Below the pieces are notes generated by a model. It was not told the origin of the DNA. It was given only the letters and a program-made list of their open reading frames with translations, and did no database searches. Of a stretch of DNA of 64,000 nt, positions 7,731 through 61,864 are shown in pieces. Origin of the DNA: an uncultured archaeon. GTDB lineage: Archaea; Asgardarchaeota; Lokiarchaeia; Sigyniarchaeales; SOKP01. The first letter of the stretch is position 1. The number at the start of each line of letters is the position of its first letter. Location of the stretch: NCBI GenBank assembly GCA_964486045.1, contig CAZALK010000003.1:128001-192000 (forward strand), given 5' to 3'. The translations under genes and the position numbers were made by a program.

Positions 7731-8645
7731 ATGAATTATGTAGTTGGAAATTTAGTAGAACCTGTATTTAGACCTCCTTCTGAGTGGGACGCCTTATTGA
7801 TTGCTATAACGAATGGTTGCACTCGTCAATGTACATTCTGCTCGATGTATAGTTCCAAAACATTCTCTATTCGTAAAGATATAGTAGAAATTAAAAATGA
7901 TATTAAAAGAGCCGGTGCTTTTTATGGAAATCGAGTACGTAAAATATTTTTCGAAGATGGGAACGCTTTTGTTGTTAAACCTGATGTTCTTACAGAACTA
8001 ACCGAATATTGTTATAAAATTCACCCAAATCTCGAAAAAGTTAGCTCATATTCTCATGCCAAAGATATCATAAAAAAATCTGATGAAGATTTAAAAAAAC
8101 TAGCAGATAGCGGTTTTACGATGGTTTATGTAGGTGTTGAAAGCGGGGATAACGAAGTGTTAAAAGAGTGCAAAAAAGGGAATACGCAAGATGAACTTAC
8201 TCTTGCTGCTCAAAAATGTTATAGAGCAGGAATTTCTTGGTCGGGTATTTTTCTGTTAGGACTCGCTGGCAATGATCCTGAAAAAAGTCGAAAACATGCG
8301 GTTGAATCTGCTAAATTGATTAATAGAATGGCTCCACCAGATCCAATTACTTGGTATATATCACCCCTAACATTAGGTATTACTCCCGGAACTGAGTTGT
8401 GGGCGCAAAAATCAACTGGAGAATTCAAACCATGTACCCCTACAGAAATATTGGAGGAATTATACACGCTGATAGAATTCACGTCTGAGGACTTGCAGAA
8501 TTGTATCTTTAATTCAAATCACGCGTCAAATTATGTTAGCTTAAAAGGAGAATTAGCTAAAGATAAAGAGCTTTTCCTAAAGGTTGTTGAAGCTGGCATA
8601 AAATATCCGAACCTACGTCGACCGGACTTCCGTCGTGGATTATAA
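7731..8645 (+). CDS. Radical SAM protein
   Basis: VFRPPSE, CTRQCTFC (CxxxCxxC), YVGVESG, NHASNY. Confidence 0.92.
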   Translation: MNYVVGNLVEPVFRPPSEWDALLIAITNGCTRQCTFCSMYSSKTFSIRKDIVEIKNDIKRAGAFYGNRVRKIFFEDGNAFVVKPDVLTELTEYCYKIHPNLEKVSSYSHAKDIIKKSDEDLKKLADSGFTMVYVGVESGDNEVLKECKKGNTQDELTLAAQKCYRAGISWSGIFLLGLAGNDPEKSRKHAVESAKLINRMAPPDPITWYISPLTLGITPGTELWAQKSTGEFKPCTPTEILEELYTLIEFTSEDLQNCIFNSNHASNYVSLKGELAKDKELFLKVVEAGIKYPNLRRPDFRRGL

Positions 8646-8689: not shown

Positions 8690-9298
8690 CTATTTCACAT
8701 CTCGAACCATTAACCACATTGGTAAATTCACGGGATCTGGAATTACTACTTTATTAGCAACATGAAATCCAAACTTTTCATAGAGTGAAACATTCTTTTC
8801 ATTTTGAGTCTCCAAATATATAGGTTTTTTTTCTGTTTCGGATTTTTCTATAATTGCTCTTAAAAATTTTCCCCCAAAACCTTTTCCTTGAAATTCTCTT
8901 GAAACAGCCATTATAAATAGAAATATATGTGGACCTAAATCAAGATCTTTCTTCGCTTCCTCTATTGTATTAAAACTTTTTTCCATTACCTTTCTTAAAC
9001 TCGCTAACTTCATACCAAGAAAAAAACCACCACTTCGAAAAACTCTCCATCCTGTCATTTCACCTTTATCATGAGGTACAATTGCCATTACACCTTCAAA
9101 ATTATCAGATGATGAGTAAACATTACCATATTTTACACAAAATCTAAGCATAATCTTAAACTGGGCACGTCTCTTTTCTTCTTCTTTCATAAATTTTTCA
9201 AACATTACATCATCAGAATATGCATTCAAGAATACATCATTTACTGCTCTATTGATATCTTTTTTTTGTAATTTATGAAACTCTCCAATTAAAGACAT
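8690..9298 (-). CDS. GNAT N-acetyltransferase
   Basis: FQGKGFGG, IYLET, NVSLYEKFGF. Confidence 0.9.
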   Translation of the reverse strand: MSLIGEFHKLQKKDINRAVNDVFLNAYSDDVMFEKFMKEEEKRRAQFKIMLRFCVKYGNVYSSSDNFEGVMAIVPHDKGEMTGWRVFRSGGFFLGMKLASLRKVMEKSFNTIEEAKKDLDLGPHIFLFIMAVSREFQGKGFGGKFLRAIIEKSETEKKPIYLETQNEKNVSLYEKFGFHVANKVVIPDPVNLPMWLMVRDVK

Positions 9299-10885: not shown

Positions 10886-12388
10886 ATGGATAACAAACCA
10901 AATATAATAATTTTTAATGTTGATCAGTGGCGTGGGGATGTATTAGGACATCTGGGAAATCCCGCAGCAAAAACCCCGAATCTTGATCAAATTGTTAAAA
11001 ATGACGCTGTTTCATTTAGCAGTGCTTTTTGTCAGAATCCCGTGTGTACACCTTCCAGATGCTCTTTCATGACTGGTTGGTATCCTCACGTCAGGGGCCA
11101 TCGAACTATGCATCATATGCTTCATTTAGAAAGAGGTGAACCAAATTTACTTAGAATTCTTAAGGATAATAGTTATATGGTCTGGTGGGGCGGGAGAAAT
11201 GATTTAATTTCAGTAAAAGACGATTTAAAAGAACATTGTGATATTTTATTTTGGCCTACAAAAGAAGATCGTAATCGCTGGGGTTATGAGTGGATGCCGA
11301 ATCTACATCGATCAGATAAATGGCGAGGAAAGCCTGGAAGTGATAATTATTATAGTTTTTTTGCAGGAAAATTAGATACTCAAGAAAAGGATATTTATTT
11401 TGACTTCGATTGGGCTATAATTTTAGGAGCAATAGATTTTATCAAGAATTATGATGGACAAAAACCCTTTTGCATGTATATTGCGCTTGCTAATCCACAT
11501 CCCCCATATGGTATTGAAGAACCATGGTATAGCATGATTGATCGTAATAAAGTTCCACCTCGTAAAGAAACCCCAAAAAATTGGTTTGGAAAACCTTCGC
11601 TCTTAAAGGGAATGTATGAACGTCAGAATCTTCAGAAAATGACTGAAAATCAATGGACTGAGTTACGAGCAACATATTATGGAATGTGCGCTCGTCTTGA
11701 TCATCAATTTGGATTAATTGTTGAGGAACTAAGAAAAAAGAATTATTATGATGATAGTGCAATCTTTCTATTCTCTGATCATGGTGATTTTACAGGAGAC
11801 TTTGGTTTGGTAGAAAAAACTCAGAATACATTTGAAGATTGCCTTACCAATGTACCTTTTATAATTAAACCTCCGAGTAATATCGATGTTAAACCTCGGG
11901 TTTGTGATGCACTGGTTGAATTAGTTGACTTTTCTGAAACAGTTTTTGCTTTAACAAATATAACTCCTAATTATTCACGGTTTGGTAGAAATTTAATACC
12001 ATTACTTCAGGGGAAAACTGAAGAAAATAGAGATGCGGTTTTTTGTGAGGGGGGGAGACTTTATGGTGAGAAACATGCAATGGAACTGGAAGACCCTTCA
12101 AATTTAAGGCCCACTGGTCTCTATTGGCCTCGAGTGGGGCTTCAAACAACTGATGATGGACCCTATCATAGTAAAGCAGTCATGTGTAGGACAAAAAATT
12201 ATAAATATGTAAACCGTCTTTATGAGAAAGATGAATTATATGATCTAATTAATGATCCAGCAGAATTAATTAACATCATTGATGATTTAAAGTATAAGGA
12301 CACGCTAATTATGTTGAAAGAAAGAATGCTTACATGGTATGTAGAAACGTGTGATGTAGTTCCATTTAAGACTGATAGAAGATTTTAA
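10886..12388 (+). CDS. Sulfatase (formylglycine type)
   Basis: KPNII..DQWR, CTPSRCSFMTG signature, PHPPY, SDHGD, ELYDL. Confidence 0.93.
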   Translation: MDNKPNIIIFNVDQWRGDVLGHLGNPAAKTPNLDQIVKNDAVSFSSAFCQNPVCTPSRCSFMTGWYPHVRGHRTMHHMLHLERGEPNLLRILKDNSYMVWWGGRNDLISVKDDLKEHCDILFWPTKEDRNRWGYEWMPNLHRSDKWRGKPGSDNYYSFFAGKLDTQEKDIYFDFDWAIILGAIDFIKNYDGQKPFCMYIALANPHPPYGIEEPWYSMIDRNKVPPRKETPKNWFGKPSLLKGMYERQNLQKMTENQWTELRATYYGMCARLDHQFGLIVEELRKKNYYDDSAIFLFSDHGDFTGDFGLVEKTQNTFEDCLTNVPFIIKPPSNIDVKPRVCDALVELVDFSETVFALTNITPNYSRFGRNLIPLLQGKTEENRDAVFCEGGRLYGEKHAMELEDPSNLRPTGLYWPRVGLQTTDDGPYHSKAVMCRTKNYKYVNRLYEKDELYDLINDPAELINIIDDLKYKDTLIMLKERMLTWYVETCDVVPFKTDRRF

Positions 12389-18157: not shown

Positions 18158-18324
18158 GATAATAATATTCCCTATTATTCTATCTTATATACCTTATAAA
18201 ATTAAAATAAATCTAGTCTAATAAATGCTCTCAGATTATTAATTTTTCAAAATAGATGTAATATCTAAGAGCAAGACTAAATAATTAAAGTTTGCTAAAG
18301 AGATTAAAAAAGAGATAATAACGA

Positions 18325-23360: not shown

Positions 23361-24557
23361 ATGACAAGATTACCTTTAGATGGAATCACTGTCGTAGACT
23401 TCTCAACAATAATAGCTGCTCCATTAATCGGAACATTACTATCCGATTTTGGAGCCGAAGTAATCAAAGTAGAAAAACCGAAAGTTGGTGATGTGACTAG
23501 AGGAGGCGGGGATTTTTCTGGGAGAAGGAGCCCTTTATGGCTTACAATTAACAGGAATAAAAAGACTATCACTCTAGATCTTCATACAAATGAAGGTCAA
23601 GATATTGCTAGAAAACTTTGCGCTAAAACAGATGTAGTTATTTTTAATTTTCGACCTGGAGTTATAGAAAATTGGAATCTAGGACCTGACGATTTACATA
23701 AAATTAATCCAGACTTAATAATAGGACTAATTTCTGGTTATGGTCAAACTGGACCTTATAAGGATAAAGGAGGCTATGATAGAACGGTAAGCGCATTTTC
23801 AGGGGTGACATATACTTCTGGATACCCAGAACATCCACCTGTACGTTCTGGATTCCCATTAATTGATTATTTAACGGGATATCTTGGAGCGTTTGCAGTA
23901 ATGATGGCATTATATAATAGAGACGTCAATAAGAATGGAGGAGAGGTGATAGATTTAACTCTCACAGAATCTGCATTTAGAACATCGGGAGCTGCTATTT
24001 CAATGTATTCAAAATTTGGATCTATTTATGAAAGAGCTGGGAATCGAATTAGATTTGTAGTCCCTGCAGAGAATTTTGAAACAAAAGATGGAAGAATCGT
24101 AGCAATTAATGCAAATTCTATAAAACTTTGGGAAAGGTTAGCTGAAGCTATGAAAAGGAAAGACATGTTAACTGATAGTAGGTTTAACTCTTATTCAAAT
24201 CGATTTAAGAATCAAGATGAACTTTATGATATAATCGGGGATTGGGTAAAAAATTATATGGCTGTAGAAATTATGCAATTGCTAGAAAAAGCGGAAGTTC
24301 CATGTGAAAAAGTAAATAGTATTGCAGATTTAGCTGAAGATCCTCACATGCTTCAAAGAGAAGCCATTATAGAGTTTGAAGATTACGAATATGGAAAAAT
24401 TTTAGTACCGGGAATAGTCCCTAAATTAAAGAATTTTCCCGGACGCATTAAATTCTTAGGAGGTAAGTTAGGAGAGCACAATCAAGAAATATTTCAAAAT
24501 CTTCTTGGATTATCTTCAGAAGAAATTAAAGAATTGGAGGAAAAGGAAGTAATATAA
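23361..24557 (+). CDS. Family III CoA-transferase (CaiB/BaiF)
   Basis: PLDGITVVDFS, GAEVIKVE, NRNKK, NFRPG, SGYGQTGPY, GEHN. Confidence 0.93.
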   Translation: MTRLPLDGITVVDFSTIIAAPLIGTLLSDFGAEVIKVEKPKVGDVTRGGGDFSGRRSPLWLTINRNKKTITLDLHTNEGQDIARKLCAKTDVVIFNFRPGVIENWNLGPDDLHKINPDLIIGLISGYGQTGPYKDKGGYDRTVSAFSGVTYTSGYPEHPPVRSGFPLIDYLTGYLGAFAVMMALYNRDVNKNGGEVIDLTLTESAFRTSGAAISMYSKFGSIYERAGNRIRFVVPAENFETKDGRIVAINANSIKLWERLAEAMKRKDMLTDSRFNSYSNRFKNQDELYDIIGDWVKNYMAVEIMQLLEKAEVPCEKVNSIADLAEDPHMLQREAIIEFEDYEYGKILVPGIVPKLKNFPGRIKFLGGKLGEHNQEIFQNLLGLSSEEIKELEEKEVI

Positions 24558-24595
24558 CATTTATATTTCAGTTTATTTGAAGAGAAAAAATATTA

Positions 24596-57036: not shown

Positions 57037-57399
57037 TTAAGATAGACGATACTTACCTTTTTGAAGCTTTTCTATATTGACTCTTATTTGCGTATAACCT
57101 AAGTCTTTAATATTCGATATACTTATAATAAGCCCAGTCTGCTTCATATCTACTTTGAACTTGTCAGAACGGAAATATTCTCGTAGTATTGTTCCGTGAT
57201 GATATCCATGTATTAATTTTAAACCACTTACTCCGCGATAAACACATTTTTCTAATTTTGATTCTACGTAAACCATAGCTTCTTTAAGCGTTAACCCATG
57301 TAAATCAATCGGAAGAAAATGAGCATTTTCTATATGTCTTTTTAGAAATAATTCATCTAAGTACTTTTTTCCACAATATTTGCAAATTTGAAATTTCAA
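57037..57399 (-). CDS. C2H2 zinc finger fused to an Smr endonuclease domain
   Basis: CKYCGKKYLDELFLKRHIENAH followed by IDLHGL...LIHGYHHG. Confidence 0.82.
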   Translation of the reverse strand: MKFQICKYCGKKYLDELFLKRHIENAHFLPIDLHGLTLKEAMVYVESKLEKCVYRGVSGLKLIHGYHHGTILREYFRSDKFKVDMKQTGLIISISNIKDLGYTQIRVNIEKLQKGKYRLS

Positions 57400-57900: not shown

Positions 57901-59106
57901 ACGGTTACTCATGGTATTAAAGATAAAGTTGCAGTAATCGGCTGCGATGCCACTAAATTTGGTGAATTGTGGGATAAAAGCAAAGAAGATTTACTGTTTG
58001 AATCTACTCAAGGCGCTATTAAGGATGCAGGGATTAAAAAAGATGAAATTGATGCTGCATGGCTCGGAGTTTATTATTTTTTCACAGGTGTTTCTGGAAC
58101 CACATTGGAAGATTCATTAAGATTAGGTGGGAAGCCTATAACTAGAGTTGAAAATTATTGCGCAAGCGGAATGGAATCTATAATACTTCGTTATTGATAT
58201 TCAAACGCTTTCCGCAATGCTTGTTTTGGTGTGGCATCGGGAGCTTATGATGTGGCATTAGCTTGTGGTGTTGAAAAGCTAATGGATGAAGGTGGTAGAG
58301 GATTGCCTGGAACAACAGTAATGGGACATCCAGTATTACCACGACCTTCAGCACCAGCTATGTTTTGTTTATTAGCTACTCGTAGTTTTCATGAATTCGG
58401 TTGGAGAAAAGAAGATCTAGCTCGTGTAGCAGTTAAGAATCACGAAAATGGATTTTATCATCCAAAGGCTCATTTCAGAATGAAAATTACATTAGAACAA
58501 GCTATGAATGCCCCAATGATAGCAGATCCACTCGGACGATTTGATTGTTGCGCGATGAGTGATGGTTCTGCTGCATTAATCCTTACTCGACCTGAATTAG
58601 CAGAGTCTTATGCTCATGCTGACGATTATGTTCTTGTTAAATCAAACTCACTTTCAGTTCATTCGGCTTATCCATGGTATGATCCAAAGTTTGATTTTAT
58701 ATGTGCTCCAGCTACGATTGATGCAGCAAAAATGGCATATAAAGAAGCAAACATTACAAACCCAAGAAAAGAAATTGATTTAGCAGAAGTTCACGATTGT
58801 TTTACAATAACTGAGTTATTAAATTGCCAAGATCTACAACTATGTGATAGTGGGAAAGCTGCCGAAGAATTACAAAAAGGTACTTTTAATTGGGATGGTG
58901 AAACTGCGATAAATCCAAGTGGTGGCCTAAAATCTTTCGGGCATCCTATAGGGAGTACTGGTTGTAGGATGGTTCAAGAAGTTACTAAACAACTTCAAGG
59001 AAGAGCTGAGGGAAGACAAGTACCTGATGCAAAAACTGGATTAGCTCACAATCTTGGTGGGGCTTATGCTGTCTGTTCTGTGACTATTTTAGGGCAGAGA
59101 GATTAA
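57901..59106 (+). CDS. Thiolase (acetyl-CoA acetyltransferase, archaeal/SCP-x type); spliced join(57901..58174,58205..59106), 391 aa
   Basis: GIKDKVAVIG, TRVENYCASGM|DAFRNA after intron removal, GVEKL, KNH, AEVHDCF, GHPIGSTG, HNLGG. Confidence 0.88.
58175..58204 (+). other. 30-nt bulge-helix-bulge intron in the thiolase mRNA
   Basis: AAGCG-GAAT-[GG^A]-ATC...GAT-ATTC-[AA^A]-CGCTT; contains the in-frame TGA; removal gives ATG GAC GCT TTC (MDAF). Confidence 0.88.
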
Positions 59107-59294: not shown

Positions 59295-60178
59295 ATGAAT
59301 GAATCATTTAATAAATTTCAAGGAGACGTAAAAACCGATAATTTAAAGTATCTTGCAGATCCCCAACTTAGAAATATTGTAAATGTGTCTATTGCTTTAG
59401 AACGTCCCTTACTAGTAAAGGGAGAACCCGGAACCGGAAAAACTATGCTAGCTCACGCAATATCGCAGAGTTTGAGTAAAAAACTACTAATTTGGAATGT
59501 TAAAAGCACTACTGAGGCTATTGACGGGTGCTATATGTATGATACAGTTCAACGTTTAAATGATAGTAGATTTGGTTCAGAAGACCGAGACGTAAACAAA
59601 ATTCACGATTACATTACATTTGGTCCCCTTGGAGAAGCATTTGACGCTAACGAACAAGTTGTTCTCCTTATCGATGAGATCGATAAAGCAGATATAATGT
59701 CTAATAATAATTAGCATTACTGCATATTGAGTTTCCGAACGACTTGCTACAAGAATTAGATGTAATGGAGTTCTATGTAAAAGAGACAAAAGAATTTGTA
59801 AAAACTAAAAAGCGGCCAATAGTGATAATTACTTCGAATAATGAAAAAGAACTTCCAGATGCCTTCTTAAGAAGGTGTGTATTTCACTGGATTGAATTCC
59901 CTTCTAGAGGATTTATGACAGAAATATGTAATCTCCATTACCCAAATCTTAAAACAAATTTATTAGATCAATGTCTTAAACACTTTTATGCATTGCGCGC
60001 GATTACAAAACTTAGAAAATTGCCTTCTACTTCCGAACTCCTAGATTGGATTGGAGTACTTTTAAAAAGTGGGATTAGTATTGACCAATTAAAAAAAGAA
60101 ATTCCTTTCTTAGGTGTTCTCATAAAGAAAGAAAAGGATCTCGAATTTGCATTAGAAAAACTTAAATTTCCTTCATGA
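59295..60178 (+). CDS. MoxR/CoxD-type AAA+ ATPase; spliced join(59295..59693,59726..60178), 283 aa
   Basis: GEPGTGKT, WNVKST, YDTVQRL, LLIDEIDKAD|IEFPNDLL after intron removal, TSNNEKELPDAFLRRC, PSTSELLDW. Confidence 0.9.
59694..59725 (+). other. 32-nt bulge-helix-bulge intron in the MoxR mRNA
   Basis: AA-GCAG-[AT^A]-TAATG-T-CTAAT-aata-ATTAG-CATTA-CTGC-[AT^A]-TT; causes an in-frame TAG and a frameshift; removal gives GCA GAT ATT GAG TTT CCG. Confidence 0.88.
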
Positions 60179-60362: not shown

Positions 60363-60422
60363 TTATTTAGTCGCAATACAACCAATAATAGCCACTTTAT
60401 CTTTAATTCCATGAGTAACCAT
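60363..60422 (-). pseudogene. 19-codon thiolase N-terminal stub
   Basis: MVTHGIKDKVAIIGCIATK*, 16/19 aa identical to the start of the 57901 thiolase; begins 2 nt after the stop of the HMG-CoA-synthase-like gene. Confidence 0.8.
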
Positions 60423-60424
60423 TA

Positions 60425-61864
60425 TTAAAACCTCCCCCTAACTGGTCTACATTTCCAATAATAATTTTTAAATTCACCACCTTCATGCAGCCTTCGAAAT
60501 GTTAATTCAACTTCCGTTCCAATACGGACATTTTCTTCAGGGTTTTCGATTTCGGTCATATTTAACATAACTCGACCGCCACCATCCAAATCAATTACGC
60601 ATCTGGGAACTGGAGTATCATTATAAGCACCCCCTACTAAATGATCAAGAGAATATGTATAAATTTTACCTTTTAAAGCTAGTTTAATCAGTTCCAATTG
60701 GTCATCAGCCCTACATACGATACAAGAACGTGCTGTAGTGGGATACTGAATACTTCCACAGTTTTTACATTTAAGGCCATACATTTTATACACAGCAGGT
60801 GTATCTCGCCATAATGTTACAGCAGAACTTTTTCTTACATATCGGTCTTTTTCAAGAAGTTTTTTATTTTCAACGTAAACATTATAGTTTTTAAGAAGTT
60901 TCATTGATTGTTGATGTCCTGATAAGGCCATATGAGCTTGAGAAAGTTCTTTTAGAGCGTTTATATCATGAACGTGCAATAAAATCCCATCAGCACCATC
61001 ACCAAATCCAACTAACAATGCCTTTGCATTTTTTTTGGGATTTTTTAAGGCAGAGATTAATAATATAAAGGACATTGGAGTTCCGAGATCTCCAAATTGA
61101 AAGAAAAGTCCATTTTGAGCTACTCCCTGATTAAATTTCATCGCCTTTGAAACACGTCCATGTGTTCTAGGATTATTATAATAATATGCTGCGATATCAA
61201 TATCCTCAGGACTTAAGTCATTTCTTTCGATAATCTCAGACATTACTTTTGTAACACTTTGGGTATAAAATTGAGTATCCATTTTCGACTCAAAAGTTCT
61301 TATGAAGCTATCCTCCTTTGTTCTTTTCCACGGCCCTGTTACATTAGCCGAAATAGAATAATAGTCATCTATAACAAGTGGTAAATTTTCCCCTTCACTT
61401 AGGAGAAAAGCTGCAGCACCATCACCAAACGTAAATTCCCAAGTAGTAGCTGGCTCTGCTTCTCTCATATCTGAAGCAATAACAAGTATCTTTGAGACAT
61501 CCTTATTTGCTGTAATTGTGTCAACTGCTCTTGCTAACGCGGTTGTTCCTGCTTTTAGTGAGTCAGTGAAGTCTGCTGTTACAATATCTTCCCTTAAATC
61601 TAATACTGTTGCAATAAACGAGGAGGAATCCTTTTCAGTATACACTTGAGTAGTAGAGGCAAAAAATAAACCGTCAATACTTTTTGGATCAATTCCACTA
61701 AGACAATCTATACCAGCTTCAATAGCCATGGTAAGACTATCCTCATCTGCACTTGCAACAGCCTTGTTACCAGGAACAACAGGAAAATCCCAAGCTTTAG
61801 CGATCAACTCGCGAGGCATTACATACTTTGGTAAGTAAACACCATAAGATTTAATTCCAATCAT
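60425..61864 (-). CDS. HMG-CoA-synthase-like (thiolase fold) protein fused to a DUF35 Zn-ribbon/OB-fold domain
   Basis: IGIKSYGVYLP, DEDSLTMA, GDGAAA; CKNCG...CIVC; EVELTFRR...NYYWKCRP. Confidence 0.88.
   Translation of the reverse strand: MIGIKSYGVYLPKYVMPRELIAKAWDFPVVPGNKAVASADEDSLTMAIEAGIDCLSGIDPKSIDGLFFASTTQVYTEKDSSSFIATVLDLREDIVTADFTDSLKAGTTALARAVDTITANKDVSKILVIASDMREAEPATTWEFTFGDGAAAFLLSEGENLPLVIDDYYSISANVTGPWKRTKEDSFIRTFESKMDTQFYTQSVTKVMSEIIERNDLSPEDIDIAAYYYNNPRTHGRVSKAMKFNQGVAQNGLFFQFGDLGTPMSFILLISALKNPKKNAKALLVGFGDGADGILLHVHDINALKELSQAHMALSGHQQSMKLLKNYNVYVENKKLLEKDRYVRKSSAVTLWRDTPAVYKMYGLKCKNCGSIQYPTTARSCIVCRADDQLELIKLALKGKIYTYSLDHLVGGAYNDTPVPRCVIDLDGGGRVMLNMTEIENPEENVRIGTEVELTFRRLHEGGEFKNYYWKCRPVRGRF

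What the first reader, a model, noticed from the sequence alone, without database searches (positions are those of the whole stretch)
58164..58210. Canonical BHB intron (30 nt) four codons after the thiolase catalytic cysteine
Seen pairings: exon helix AAGCG 58164-68 / CGCTT 58206-10; central helix GAAT 58169-72 / ATTC 58199-202; bulges GGA 58173-75 and AAA 58203-05; intron stem ATC/GAT plus AATA/TATT. Excising 58175-58204 turns ENYCASGMESIILRY*YSNAFRN into ENYCASGMDAFRNACFGVASG and gives a 391-aa thiolase of normal length. The insert keeps the frame but carries TGA, so the unspliced mRNA cannot make the enzyme.
Basis: partly seen in the sequence, partly recalled or inferred. Interest (0 to 1): 0.93.

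Follow-up and report, generated by a model that had tools for sequence, protein, structure and literature searches.

The report
tRNA-type intron inside a thiolase gene
A 30-base insert that breaks a thiolase gene in an Asgard archaeon has the shape cut by the tRNA-splicing enzyme, and comparison with relatives shows it must be removed from the mRNA; it is one of several such mini-introns in ordinary genes of this lineage, a rarity in archaea.

Summary

Window 58175-58204 is a 30-nt insert with an in-frame TGA. It sits in bulge-helix-bulge (BHB) geometry: a 5-bp exon helix, a 4-bp central helix, two 3-nt bulges and an inner hairpin.

- Cutting after the second nucleotide of each bulge recreates a GAC (Asp) codon. 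The result is a 391-codon thiolase that aligns without gaps to intron-less orthologs.
- Of 135 family genomes, only this one and G022 carry the insert. All others break exactly at the predicted splice sites.
- Five metagenome contigs carry the same intron at the same codon.
- Two intron-bearing alleles diverged to dS 0.64 with dN/dS 0.03, so intron-bearing genes stay functional.
- Two EndA subunits and RtcB are encoded.
- A ~40-74 nt identical patch around the intron, shared across two paralog clades, suggests homing-like gene conversion.

A motif-free comparison with a relative found five such 30-32 nt inserts in about 600 ORFs here and three at other sites in the relative.

Caveats: this genome's copy has ACG where all relatives have a canonical start codon (mostly ATG). 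The BHB fold lies 2.9 kcal/mol above the MFE.

The scan's first readers had already noted many similar candidates on other DNA of this genome.

The parts
57901..58174 (+). Thiolase exon 1: 91 codons plus the first base of the split Asp codon. It begins with ACG, where orthologs have ATG, GTG or TTG. The catalytic-motif Cys codon TGC is at 58159-61.
   Evidence: Pfam Thiolase_N profile positions 1-89. Aligns to 6ESQ_A up to ...CASG.
58175..58204 (+). 30-nt BHB intron with an in-frame TGA at 58195-97. The inner hairpin is ATC/GAT plus AUAAU/GUUAU with loop ACUUC.
   Evidence: Absent from intron-less orthologs exactly at these borders. Identical (30/30) in L082, L085 and L086, and 29/30 in G022, L083 and L084.
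58164..58172 (+). 5' strands of exon helix H1 (58164-68) and the central 4-bp helix (58169-72). The 5' bulge GGA follows at 58173-75, cut between 58174 and 58175.
   Evidence: H1 pair probabilities 0.80-0.99.
58199..58210 (+). 3' strand of the central helix (58199-202), the 3' bulge AAA (58203-05, cut between 58204 and 58205), and the 3' strand of H1 (58206-10).
58205..59106 (+). Thiolase exon 2: the last two bases of the Asp codon, 299 codons, and the stop at 59104-06.
   Evidence: NCBIfam NF004810 acetyl-CoA acetyltransferase, profile 94-398 of 400, E 2.7e-117. Pfam Thiolase_C_1.
59295..59693 (+). MoxR-like AAA+ ATPase exon 1, ending ...DEIDKAD (Walker B).
59694..59725 (+). Second BHB intron, 32 nt and frame-shifting. 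Central helix GCAG 59688-91 / CUGC 59720-23, AUA bulges, 6-bp inner helix, weak 2-bp outer helix.
   Evidence: Fold z-score -3.45. Geometry. The spliced protein aligns with 0 gaps to six substantially covered orthologs at 84-87% identity.
59726..60178 (+). MoxR-like ATPase exon 2 (IEFPNDLL...), including the stop.
60425..61864 (-). HMG-CoA synthase fused to a DUF35-type Zn-ribbon/OB domain, the usual operon partner of this thiolase.
   Evidence: Pfam. NCBIfam NF003274.
60364..60423 (-). 19-codon thiolase 5' stub (MVTHGIKDKVAIIGCIATK*) with ATG, 2 nt after the HMGCS stop. It contains the right arm (60394-60420) of a 27-nt inverted repeat whose left arm is 57903-57929.

Best explanation
Window 58175-58204 is an archaeal bulge-helix-bulge (tRNA-type) intron inside the coding region of an acetoacetyl-CoA thiolase gene of an Asgard archaeon.

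How it most likely works:

1. The gene is transcribed with the insert.
2. Exon and intron bases fold into helix / 3-nt bulge / 4-bp helix / 3-nt bulge / helix.
3. The two-subunit splicing endonuclease EndA cuts after the second nucleotide of each bulge, between 58174 and 58175 and between 58204 and 58205.
4. RtcB joins the exons, which creates the Asp codon G|AC. The 30-nt intron is released, probably as a circle.
5. Only the spliced mRNA encodes the 391-residue enzyme. The unspliced mRNA stops at TGA after 98 codons.

Shown here: the geometry; exact agreement of the cutting rule with the ortholog gap; purifying selection on intron-bearing alleles; and the presence of the enzymes.

Inferred: cleavage and ligation themselves. 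Also inferred is that the intron with about 20-25 nt of each exon flank spreads between homologous thiolase genes by gene conversion, like a homing element without its own nuclease.

It belongs to a class of 30-32 nt (once 37 nt) introns found in roughly 0.5-1% of genes in this genus, often in or next to catalytic motifs.
For: **Geometry.** All helices and bulges sit at the stated places. The strict motif rate is 1.05e-4 per (site, length) pair, and a relaxed 'good' motif occurs at 3.7e-4.

**Gap in orthologs.**
- The spliced protein aligns over 387 aa with 0 gaps to the G019, G002, G004 and G018 orthologs.
- The DNA alignment shows exactly 30 extra bases.
- Of 135 family genomes, only G000 and G022 match through the insert. 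The rest break at query 56 and resume at 86-88, i.e. 58175 and 58205-07.
- Exon 2 starts at profile position 94 of 400 in NF004810, and exon 1 covers Thiolase_N positions 1-89.

**Real in DNA.** Contigs from two samples (depth 260 and 69) span the gene with 0 and 1 differences and no gaps.

**Recurrence.** The same intron sits at the same codon in G022 and in five metagenome contigs from separate projects. All of these have ATG starts and otherwise intact frames.

**Selection.**
- Against intron-less orthologs, dN/dS is 0.036-0.042, the same as among those orthologs.
- Between two intron-bearing alleles (G000 and L082), dS is 0.64, dN is 0.020 and omega is 0.031.
- Polarised by branch, changes are 11N:64S on G000 and 6N:33S on L082, so there is no relaxation.

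**Machinery.** Two EndA ORFs exceed the TIGR00324 cut-off. They align to the N- and C-terminal repeats of the fused model respectively. There is one RtcB.

**Class.** The motif-free census found stop-bearing or frame-shifting inserts of 30, 30, 30, 32 and 32 nt in thiolase, AIRS-like, CODH-like (two) and MoxR-like genes here. In G002 it found 30, 30 and 37 nt inserts in thioredoxin, PurA and a Toprim protein. Each has BHB or relaxed-BHB geometry that cuts at the homology junction.

**Mobility.**
- G000 and G022 are 74% identical in nucleotides overall but 97% identical in the 40 nt at the junction.
- The two genes lie in different paralog clades.
- G000 and L082 share an identical tract of 19+30+25 nt at 89% overall identity.
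Against: - There is no RNA-level evidence of any kind.
- In the free-RNA ensemble the BHB register of the central helix has only about 1.6% probability. The BHB conformer lies 2.9 kcal/mol above an MFE that uses a slipped register, so recognition would need the enzyme to select or stabilise it.
- This genome's copy has ACG at the start position, confirmed in both DNA samples. It also sits inverted relative to its HMGCS partner, so this copy may be poorly translated.
- The intron shows no compensatory changes. The only variant is in a bulge, so structure conservation cannot be separated from recent spread.
- A genome-wide strict-motif scan with an ORF-joining filter showed no excess over a decoy. 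The class is therefore supported only by the homology-based census of about 600 ORFs.
Confidence: 0.85

Rival explanations
1. The intron is real and spliceable, but this genome's copy is silent or switchable. An inversion between 27-nt inverted repeats (57903-29 and 60394-420) detached the thiolase from the HMGCS operon and its ATG. It now sits behind an ACG codon. It is therefore either a very recent pseudogene, or translated weakly from ACG, or restored by re-inversion.
For: - ACG stands where 14 orthologs and all other intron-bearing alleles have ATG, GTG or TTG.
- A 19-codon ATG stub lies 2 nt after the HMGCS stop, and the inverted repeat has only 1 mismatch.
- In G022/L083 the thiolase follows HMGCS on the same strand.
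Against: - There is no relaxation of constraint on the G000 branch (11N:64S against 6N:33S).
- The frame is intact over 391 codons.
- A strong GGAGG lies 8 nt upstream of the ACG.
- Only one orientation was seen in contigs from two samples, although contigs cannot show a minority form.
Confidence: 0.15
2. The insert is an inactivating insertion and the gene is simply dead. The BHB-like fold is coincidence and nothing is spliced.
For: The insert carries an in-frame stop. The start codon is ACG in this genome. The genome holds about 11 other thiolase-like loci that could compensate.
Against: - The same insert occurs in at least four diverged lineages and two paralog clades, all with intact frames.
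- Omega is 0.031 between intron-bearing alleles at dS 0.64.
- The chance of strict BHB geometry at a homology-permitted junction is about 2e-4. The same rule also works at seven other inserts.
Confidence: 0.04
3. The insert is dealt with during translation rather than by RNA splicing, either by ribosomal bypassing (as in T4 gene 60) or by TGA read-through or recoding.
For: A stop codon lies inside a hairpin-forming insert. The lineage has selenoprotein genes, according to earlier scan notes that I did not test.
Against: - There are no matching take-off and landing codons.
- Bypassing or read-through would not give the invariant Asp, which only the G|AC splice junction recreates.
- The sister inserts are frame-shifting (32 and 37 nt) or carry TAG or TAA.
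- A translated insert would add 10 residues that no ortholog has.
Confidence: 0.02
4. Splicing is conditional and acts as a switch on thiolase output (mevalonate pathway entry), as IRE1/RtcB splicing does for HAC1/XBP1, rather than the intron being a neutral or selfish passenger.
For: - The competing MFE register that hides the BHB could make cleavage depend on conditions or factors.
- The intron is 30/30 conserved, including its loop, at dS 0.64 (P of 5e-8 under neutrality).
- The inserts sit in or next to catalytic motifs.
Against: - Closest relatives do without the intron.
- Insert sites are not shared between G000 and G002, which fits turnover of selfish elements better than conserved regulation.
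- The perfect conservation is equally explained by recent spread with co-converted flanks.
Confidence: 0.1

Closest known systems
cbf5 pre-mRNA intron of Crenarchaeota (Watanabe et al. 2002; Yokobori et al. 2009, PMC2738675)
   Same: A BHB intron inside a protein-coding ORF. It is removed by a hetero-oligomeric EndA and shows lineage-specific presence and loss.
   Different: That is one gene in one phylum, inherited vertically with a few losses. Here the host is an Asgard archaeon and the gene is a metabolic enzyme. The intron is 30 nt and patchy (2 of 135 family genomes), is shared between paralog clades with co-converted flanks, and is one of several per genome.
Archaeal pre-tRNA BHB introns, including the heavily interrupted tRNA genes of Asgard archaea (preprint 10.64898/2026.10.13.758758)
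   Same: The same motif, the same cutting rule and the same enzymes. Sizes are similar: ARAGORN-nt tRNA introns in this genome. Gains are repeated.
   Different: The substrate is an mRNA, so splicing must come before or compete with translation. The exon helix is built from codons, which constrains synonymous sites.
Haloferax volcanii HVO_1309 5'-UTR BHB intron (PMC7714728)
   Same: An mRNA cut at a BHB by EndA, shown in vivo and in vitro.
   Different: It lies in the untranslated leader and does not interrupt the reading frame.
HAC1/XBP1 unconventional mRNA splicing (IRE1 plus RtcB or Trl1)
   Same: Spliceosome-independent, protein-catalysed removal of a short intron from an mRNA. The intron is defined by RNA stem-loops, ligation is by RtcB, and the frame or product changes.
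   Different: The endonuclease (IRE1) and the motif differ. That system is a regulated stress switch, and regulation is not shown here.
Homing group I introns and inteins in conserved motifs
   Same: Insertion in or beside catalytic motifs, patchy distribution, and co-conversion of flanking exon sequence.
   Different: There is no ribozyme and no encoded homing endonuclease. At 30 nt the element depends wholly on host enzymes and, by inference, on host recombination.

Membership tests
Archaeal BHB (bulge-helix-bulge) intron | Two 3-nt bulges on opposite strands separated by a 4-bp helix | tested here: met
   GAAU 58169-72 / AUUC 58199-202, with bulges GGA 58173-75 and AAA 58203-05.
Archaeal BHB (bulge-helix-bulge) intron | Flanking helices on both sides (outer exon helix and inner intron helix) | tested here: met
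   H1 is 5 bp plus a 4-bp extension. H2 is 3 bp plus a 5-bp hairpin. Pair probabilities are 0.80-0.99.
Archaeal BHB (bulge-helix-bulge) intron | Cutting after the second bulge nucleotide on each side yields the functional mature sequence | tested here: met
   The junction at 58174 and 58205 recreates GAC (Asp). The product aligns with 0 gaps to orthologs, and BLAST breaks in 59 genomes fall at the same borders.
Archaeal BHB (bulge-helix-bulge) intron | The BHB is a favoured fold of the RNA | tested here: inconclusive
   The region folds better than shuffles (z -2.43). However, the BHB conformer scores -12.0 against an MFE of -14.9 kcal/mol, and the central helix has about 1.6% probability.
Archaeal BHB (bulge-helix-bulge) intron | The host encodes splicing endonuclease EndA and RNA ligase RtcB | tested here: met
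   Two EndA ORFs score 111.9 and 81.4 bits against a cut-off of 59.6, and RtcB scores 557 bits.
Archaeal BHB (bulge-helix-bulge) intron | Observed excision and exon ligation in RNA | not testable with these tools
   No RNA run could be listed for this DNA.
Acetoacetyl-CoA thiolase of the archaeal thiolase/HMGCS/DUF35 type | Thiolase N- and C-terminal domains of full length, with the nucleophile Cys in the CASG motif | tested here: met
   Pfam Thiolase_N and Thiolase_C_1. NF004810 at E 2.7e-117. Best PDB match is 6ESQ_A, aligned through ...CASG. That this Cys is the nucleophile is established knowledge of thiolases, not tested here.
Acetoacetyl-CoA thiolase of the archaeal thiolase/HMGCS/DUF35 type | Operon link to HMG-CoA synthase and DUF35 | tested here: inconclusive
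   The HMGCS-DUF35 fusion gene lies 1.3 kb away but on the opposite strand. Only a 19-codon stub occupies the operon position.
Acetoacetyl-CoA thiolase of the archaeal thiolase/HMGCS/DUF35 type | Canonical start codon | tested here: not met
   ACG at 57901-03. All orthologs and all other intron-bearing alleles have ATG, GTG or TTG.
Programmed translational bypass (T4 gene 60 type) | Matching take-off and landing codons flanking the gap | tested here: not met
   No matching codons are present. The conserved Asp arises only from the RNA junction G|AC.
Group I / group II self-splicing intron | Ribozyme core recognisable by covariance models | tested here: not met
   No Rfam family matches anywhere in the window, and 30 nt is too short for a ribozyme.

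The most novel reading that the evidence does not exclude
Asgard archaea of this genus carry a turning-over population of about 30-nt BHB micro-introns in roughly 0.5-1% of ordinary protein-coding genes, often in or next to catalytic motifs. The tRNA-splicing enzymes remove them. They spread between homologous genes as a cassette of intron plus about 20 nt of each exon flank, by gene conversion and without any element-encoded protein. That would be a prokaryotic case of obligatory mRNA splicing at genome scale in the lineage closest to eukaryotes. It would imply some way of keeping ribosomes off unspliced transcripts.
Probability: 0.55. Interest if true: 0.92.

Novelty: new variant of a known kind. 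Interest (0 to 1): 0.8.

Why it matters
In the searchable literature, archaeal protein-coding BHB introns are known from a single gene, cbf5 in Crenarchaeota, plus one 5'-UTR case. PMC7714728 states this.

This thiolase intron is a new case in a different phylum and in a metabolic enzyme. The comparative data also show that it is not alone. About 1% of the compared ORFs carry 30-32 nt inserts that obey the same cutting rule, at sites that differ between species.

If RNA work confirms it, three consequences follow:

- Gene callers systematically split or truncate such genes in Asgard MAGs, which affects metabolic reconstructions. Here the affected genes are the mevalonate-pathway thiolase, a CODH-family subunit, PurA and thioredoxin.
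- Asgard cells must coordinate splicing with translation. That bears on the old idea that intron load favoured separating transcription from translation during eukaryogenesis.
- The co-converted exon patch offers a testable model for how nuclease-less BHB introns move.

Tried and rejected
- **RNA evidence.** No RNA holder was listed for the stretch. Only DNA contigs could be laid.
- **Genome-wide strict BHB scan with ORF-joining filter.** It gave 189 hits against 682 for a decoy pairing rule and a flat length distribution. Adjacent same-strand genes swamp the signal, so it was abandoned for a homology-based census. The first version timed out.
- **Rfam.** No family matched in the window.
- **Other copies of the intron in this genome.** None with up to 6 substitutions, so it is not a dispersed repeat.
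- **Profilin Pfam search for lineage.** Nothing rang, including in the controls, so it is uninformative.
- **Census false positives or unresolved events.**
  - C26:14374 is a gene start.
  - C9:11281 is a 30-nt insert in a degraded thiolase-like copy without recognisable BHB.
  - The 12-21 nt 'stop' events are ORF-end or antisense artefacts.
- **Rejected readings.** Translational bypass and read-through, assembly artefact, and TSD-flanked transposon insertion were considered and rejected. For the last, no target duplication exists; the terminal complementarity is the exon-intron central helix.
- **Trans-splicing between the ATG stub and the thiolase transcript.** Rejected, because the two RNAs would be same-sense, not complementary.

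Full report
**Observation**

- AAGCG 58164-68 pairs with CGCTT 58206-10.
- GAAT 58169-72 pairs with ATTC 58199-202.
- GGA 58173-75 and AAA 58203-05 are unpaired and lie on opposite strands.
- ATC 58176-78 pairs with GAT 58196-98. An inner 5-bp hairpin follows at 58180-84 / 58190-94, and an outer extension pairs at 58159-62 / 58213-16.

The order along the strands is the same as at the canonical tRNA 37/38 site: outer helix, central helix, bulge, inner helix on the 5' strand; inner helix, central helix, bulge, outer helix on the 3' strand. That comparison is my knowledge of the motif.

The 30-nt insert 58175-58204 keeps the frame and carries TGA at 58195-97. Removing it gives ...ENYCASGMDAFRNACFGVASG.... 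The region folds better than shuffles (z -2.43).

A strict BHB occurs at 1.05e-4 per (site, length) pair in this genome. Homology allows only two equivalent placements of the gap, so chance agreement is about 2e-4.

A caveat: the BHB conformer scores -12.0 kcal/mol against -14.9 for an MFE that uses a slipped register of the central helix. H1 and H2 form in both.

**The gene**

- Exon 1 matches Thiolase_N profile positions 1-89, and the downstream ORF matches positions 100-258 plus Thiolase_C_1.
- Exon 2 starts at position 94 of 400 of NCBIfam acetyl-CoA acetyltransferase NF004810 (E 2.7e-117).
- The best solved relative is the acetoacetyl-CoA thiolase of the archaeal thiolase/HMGCS/DUF35 complex, 6ESQ. 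It aligns through the CASG motif at the end of exon 1.
- An HMG-CoA synthase fused to DUF35 lies next door at 60425-61864 on the minus strand.

**The organism**

The genome is 5.18 Mb with 32% G+C and 99% completeness. It encodes several true actins (441 and 421 bits), which fits an Asgard archaeon. One contig with the same intron has a LAZR01 accession.

**Comparative test of the junction**

- The spliced protein aligns over 387 residues with zero gaps to the orthologs in G019, G002, G004 (91-94% identity) and G018.
- The DNA alignment shows exactly 30 extra bases in this genome.
- Across 135 genomes of the family, only G000 and G022 match through the insert. Matches in the other 59 genomes stop at query 56 and resume at 86-88, i.e. 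window 58175 and 58205-07.
- The junction codon G|AC restores an Asp that is invariant in all orthologs. This also excludes bypassing or read-through as the way the insert is dealt with.

**The insert is real DNA and recurs**

- Contigs of two samples from one marine-sediment study (depth 260 and 69) span the gene with 0 and 1 differences and no gaps.
- An exact search for the intron core found it in the G022 contig and in five metagenome contigs from several projects. It is always in this thiolase gene and at the same codon.
- All those alleles have ATG starts. L082 encodes an intact 391-aa protein once the insert is removed.

**Selection**

- dN/dS of this gene against intron-less orthologs is 0.036-0.042, the same as among those orthologs.
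- Intron-bearing alleles form one clade inside paralog group a (G000, L082, L086; support 96/96) and one inside group b (G022, L083, L084; support 100/99).
- G000 and L082 both carry the intron and differ at 128 exon positions but only 13 residues: dS 0.64, dN 0.020, omega 0.031.
- The nonsynonymous to synonymous ratio is the same on both branches, 11:64 and 6:33.

An insert with a stop codon cannot persist under such constraint unless it is removed before or during decoding.

**Machinery**

- The genome has two roughly 200-aa EndA ORFs, both above the endA equivalog cut-off.
- One keeps the Tyr/His catalytic-type motif and aligns to the C-terminal repeat of the fused-enzyme model. The other aligns to the N-terminal repeat and weakly to a beta-subunit model.
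- This fits the heteromeric, broad-specificity type reported for Asgard and TACK archaea (PMC5829648).
- There is one RtcB.
- ARAGORN finds only 31 tRNAs and of them with introns, including 30-nt ones. This is in line with a recent preprint on interrupted Asgard tRNA genes (10.64898/2026.10.13.758758).

**Not an isolated case**

The neighbouring MoxR-like AAA+ gene is split right after Walker B.

- A 32-nt insert lies at 59694-59725. It has central helix GCAG/CUGC, AUA bulges and a 6-bp inner helix (fold z -3.45).
- The cutting rule yields DEIDKAD|IEFPNDLL. The spliced protein aligns with zero gaps to six substantially covered orthologs.

For a motif-free census I fetched 800 kb of relative G002 and compared ORF proteins of each genome with the other's DNA. 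About 600 ORFs had orthologs.

- Ordinary stop-free indels decline steadily in frequency from 12 nt.
- In G000, the stop-bearing or frame-shifting inserts that hold up are 30, 30, 30, 32 and 32 nt. They lie in the thiolase, an AIR-synthase-related gene, a CO-dehydrogenase-family gene (two inserts) and the MoxR-like gene.
- In G002 they are 30, 30 and 37 nt. They lie just before thioredoxin's WCGPC, inside adenylosuccinate synthetase's GDEGKGK, and in a Toprim protein (families confirmed).
- Four pass a stated BHB threshold whose null rate is 3.7e-4 per site.
- The other four are relaxed forms, with one central mismatch, a weak outer helix, or a 2- or 5-nt bulge. In these the same rule still lands on the homology junction.
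- No site is shared between the two genomes, so turnover is fast.
- One further 30-nt insert (C9) lies in a degraded gene and is unresolved. One event (C26) was a gene start. A few 12-21 nt stop-containing events look like ORF-end or antisense artefacts.

**Mobility (inference)**

- G000 (paralog a) and G022 (paralog b) are 74% identical in nucleotides overall. They are 97% identical in the 40 nt spanning the junction, with 25 nt upstream and 16 nt downstream identical. The intron differs only at its first, bulged base.
- G000 differs from its own intron-less orthologs mainly at the helix-forming exon positions: AGC rather than TCN for Ser, and GCT rather than GCA/GCC.
- G000 and L082 share a 74-nt identical tract at 89% overall identity. 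The intron has 0 changes in 30 nt, where dS predicts P of 5e-8.

The simplest reading is recent spread of a cassette of intron plus flanks by gene conversion between homologous genes. Very strong constraint on every base is the alternative.

**Complication in this genome**

- The codon aligned with the orthologs' start is ACG (57901-03), behind a GGAGG. Both DNA samples agree.
- A 19-codon thiolase stub with ATG sits 2 nt after the HMGCS stop on the other strand.
- A 27-nt inverted repeat (57903-29 and 60394-420, one mismatch) brackets the thiolase and MoxR-like genes.
- Recombination between the repeats would rebuild an HMGCS-thiolase-MoxR operon with an ATG start.

I cannot tell whether this is a relic, a switch or a very recent inactivation. 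No relaxation of constraint is detectable.

**Literature**

In the searchable library, ORF-interrupting BHB introns are reported only for crenarchaeal cbf5 (PMC2738675). One 5'-UTR case is reported in Haloferax, and PMC7714728 states this explicitly. Six searches found nothing on Asgard mRNA introns. Papers outside the library cannot be excluded.

**Verdict**

[quoted passage not shown] It is strongly supported by geometry, exact ortholog gaps, recurrence, purifying selection and the presence of the enzymes. RNA-level proof is missing. It is a new variant of a known kind, because of its host lineage, its multiplicity, its uniform micro-size and its apparent cassette-like spread.

Noticed in passing
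window 57901-57903: The thiolase frame has ACG where all 14 compared orthologs and all other intron-bearing alleles have ATG, GTG or TTG. GGAGG lies 8 nt upstream. Both DNA samples confirm it.
   Followed up: partly
window 57903-57929 and 60394-60420; stub 60364-60423 (-): A 27-nt inverted repeat (1 mismatch) brackets the two intron-bearing genes. The right arm belongs to a 19-codon thiolase stub with ATG, 2 nt after the HMGCS-DUF35 stop. Inversion would restore an HMGCS-thiolase-MoxR operon. Only one orientation was seen in contigs.
   Followed up: partly
window 59694-59725: A second, frame-shifting 32-nt BHB intron lies right after the Walker B motif of a MoxR-like AAA+ ATPase. The spliced protein aligns without gaps to six substantially covered orthologs.
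   Followed up: yes
window 57037-57399 (-): A 120-aa protein with an N-terminal C2H2-like finger and a Pfam Smr domain (E 3e-7) lies just upstream of the thiolase. Smr nucleases act on stalled or collided ribosomes in other systems. A link to unspliced mRNAs is pure speculation.
   Followed up: partly
G000:C22:24749-24778 and about 24550-24581 (-) (locus L087): Two inserts (30 and 32 nt) lie in one Prismane/CO-dehydrogenase-family gene. The first has a 6-bp outer helix, a 9-bp inner helix and one U.U mismatch in the central helix. The second lacks an outer helix in register, but the cutting rule still gives a gapless match (WVH|YQITQ).
   Followed up: partly
G000:C5:195271-195300 (+) (locus L088): A 30-nt insert in an AIR-synthase-related gene has the best BHB of all: 4/4 central pairs, an 11-bp outer helix and a 9-bp inner helix. 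It is absent from the G002 ortholog.
   Followed up: partly
L075 about 8823-8859 (-), L049 about 18199-18231 (-), L062 about 8141-8178 (-) (relative G002): The relative has its own inserts, all absent from G000. One of 30 nt lies directly before thioredoxin's WCGPC. One of 30 nt lies inside adenylosuccinate synthetase's GDEGKGK. One of 37 nt lies in a Toprim protein. All have BHB-variant geometry.
   Followed up: partly
G000:C9 about 11250-11281 (-): A 30-nt insert with two stops lies about 10 codons after the QCGSAG catalytic motif of a second, thiolase-like copy. The downstream part of that copy is degraded. No BHB was recognised.
   Followed up: partly
G000:C1:759270 (+) and G000:C4:119548 (-): These are further 30-nt strict-BHB, ORF-joining hits from the genome scan. 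Neither was validated against orthologs.
   Followed up: no
whole genome G000: ARAGORN detects only 31 tRNA genes in a 99%-complete genome and of them with introns. Several calls are odd (Pyl and Stop anticodons). This suggests many tRNA genes are interrupted at non-canonical sites.
   Followed up: no
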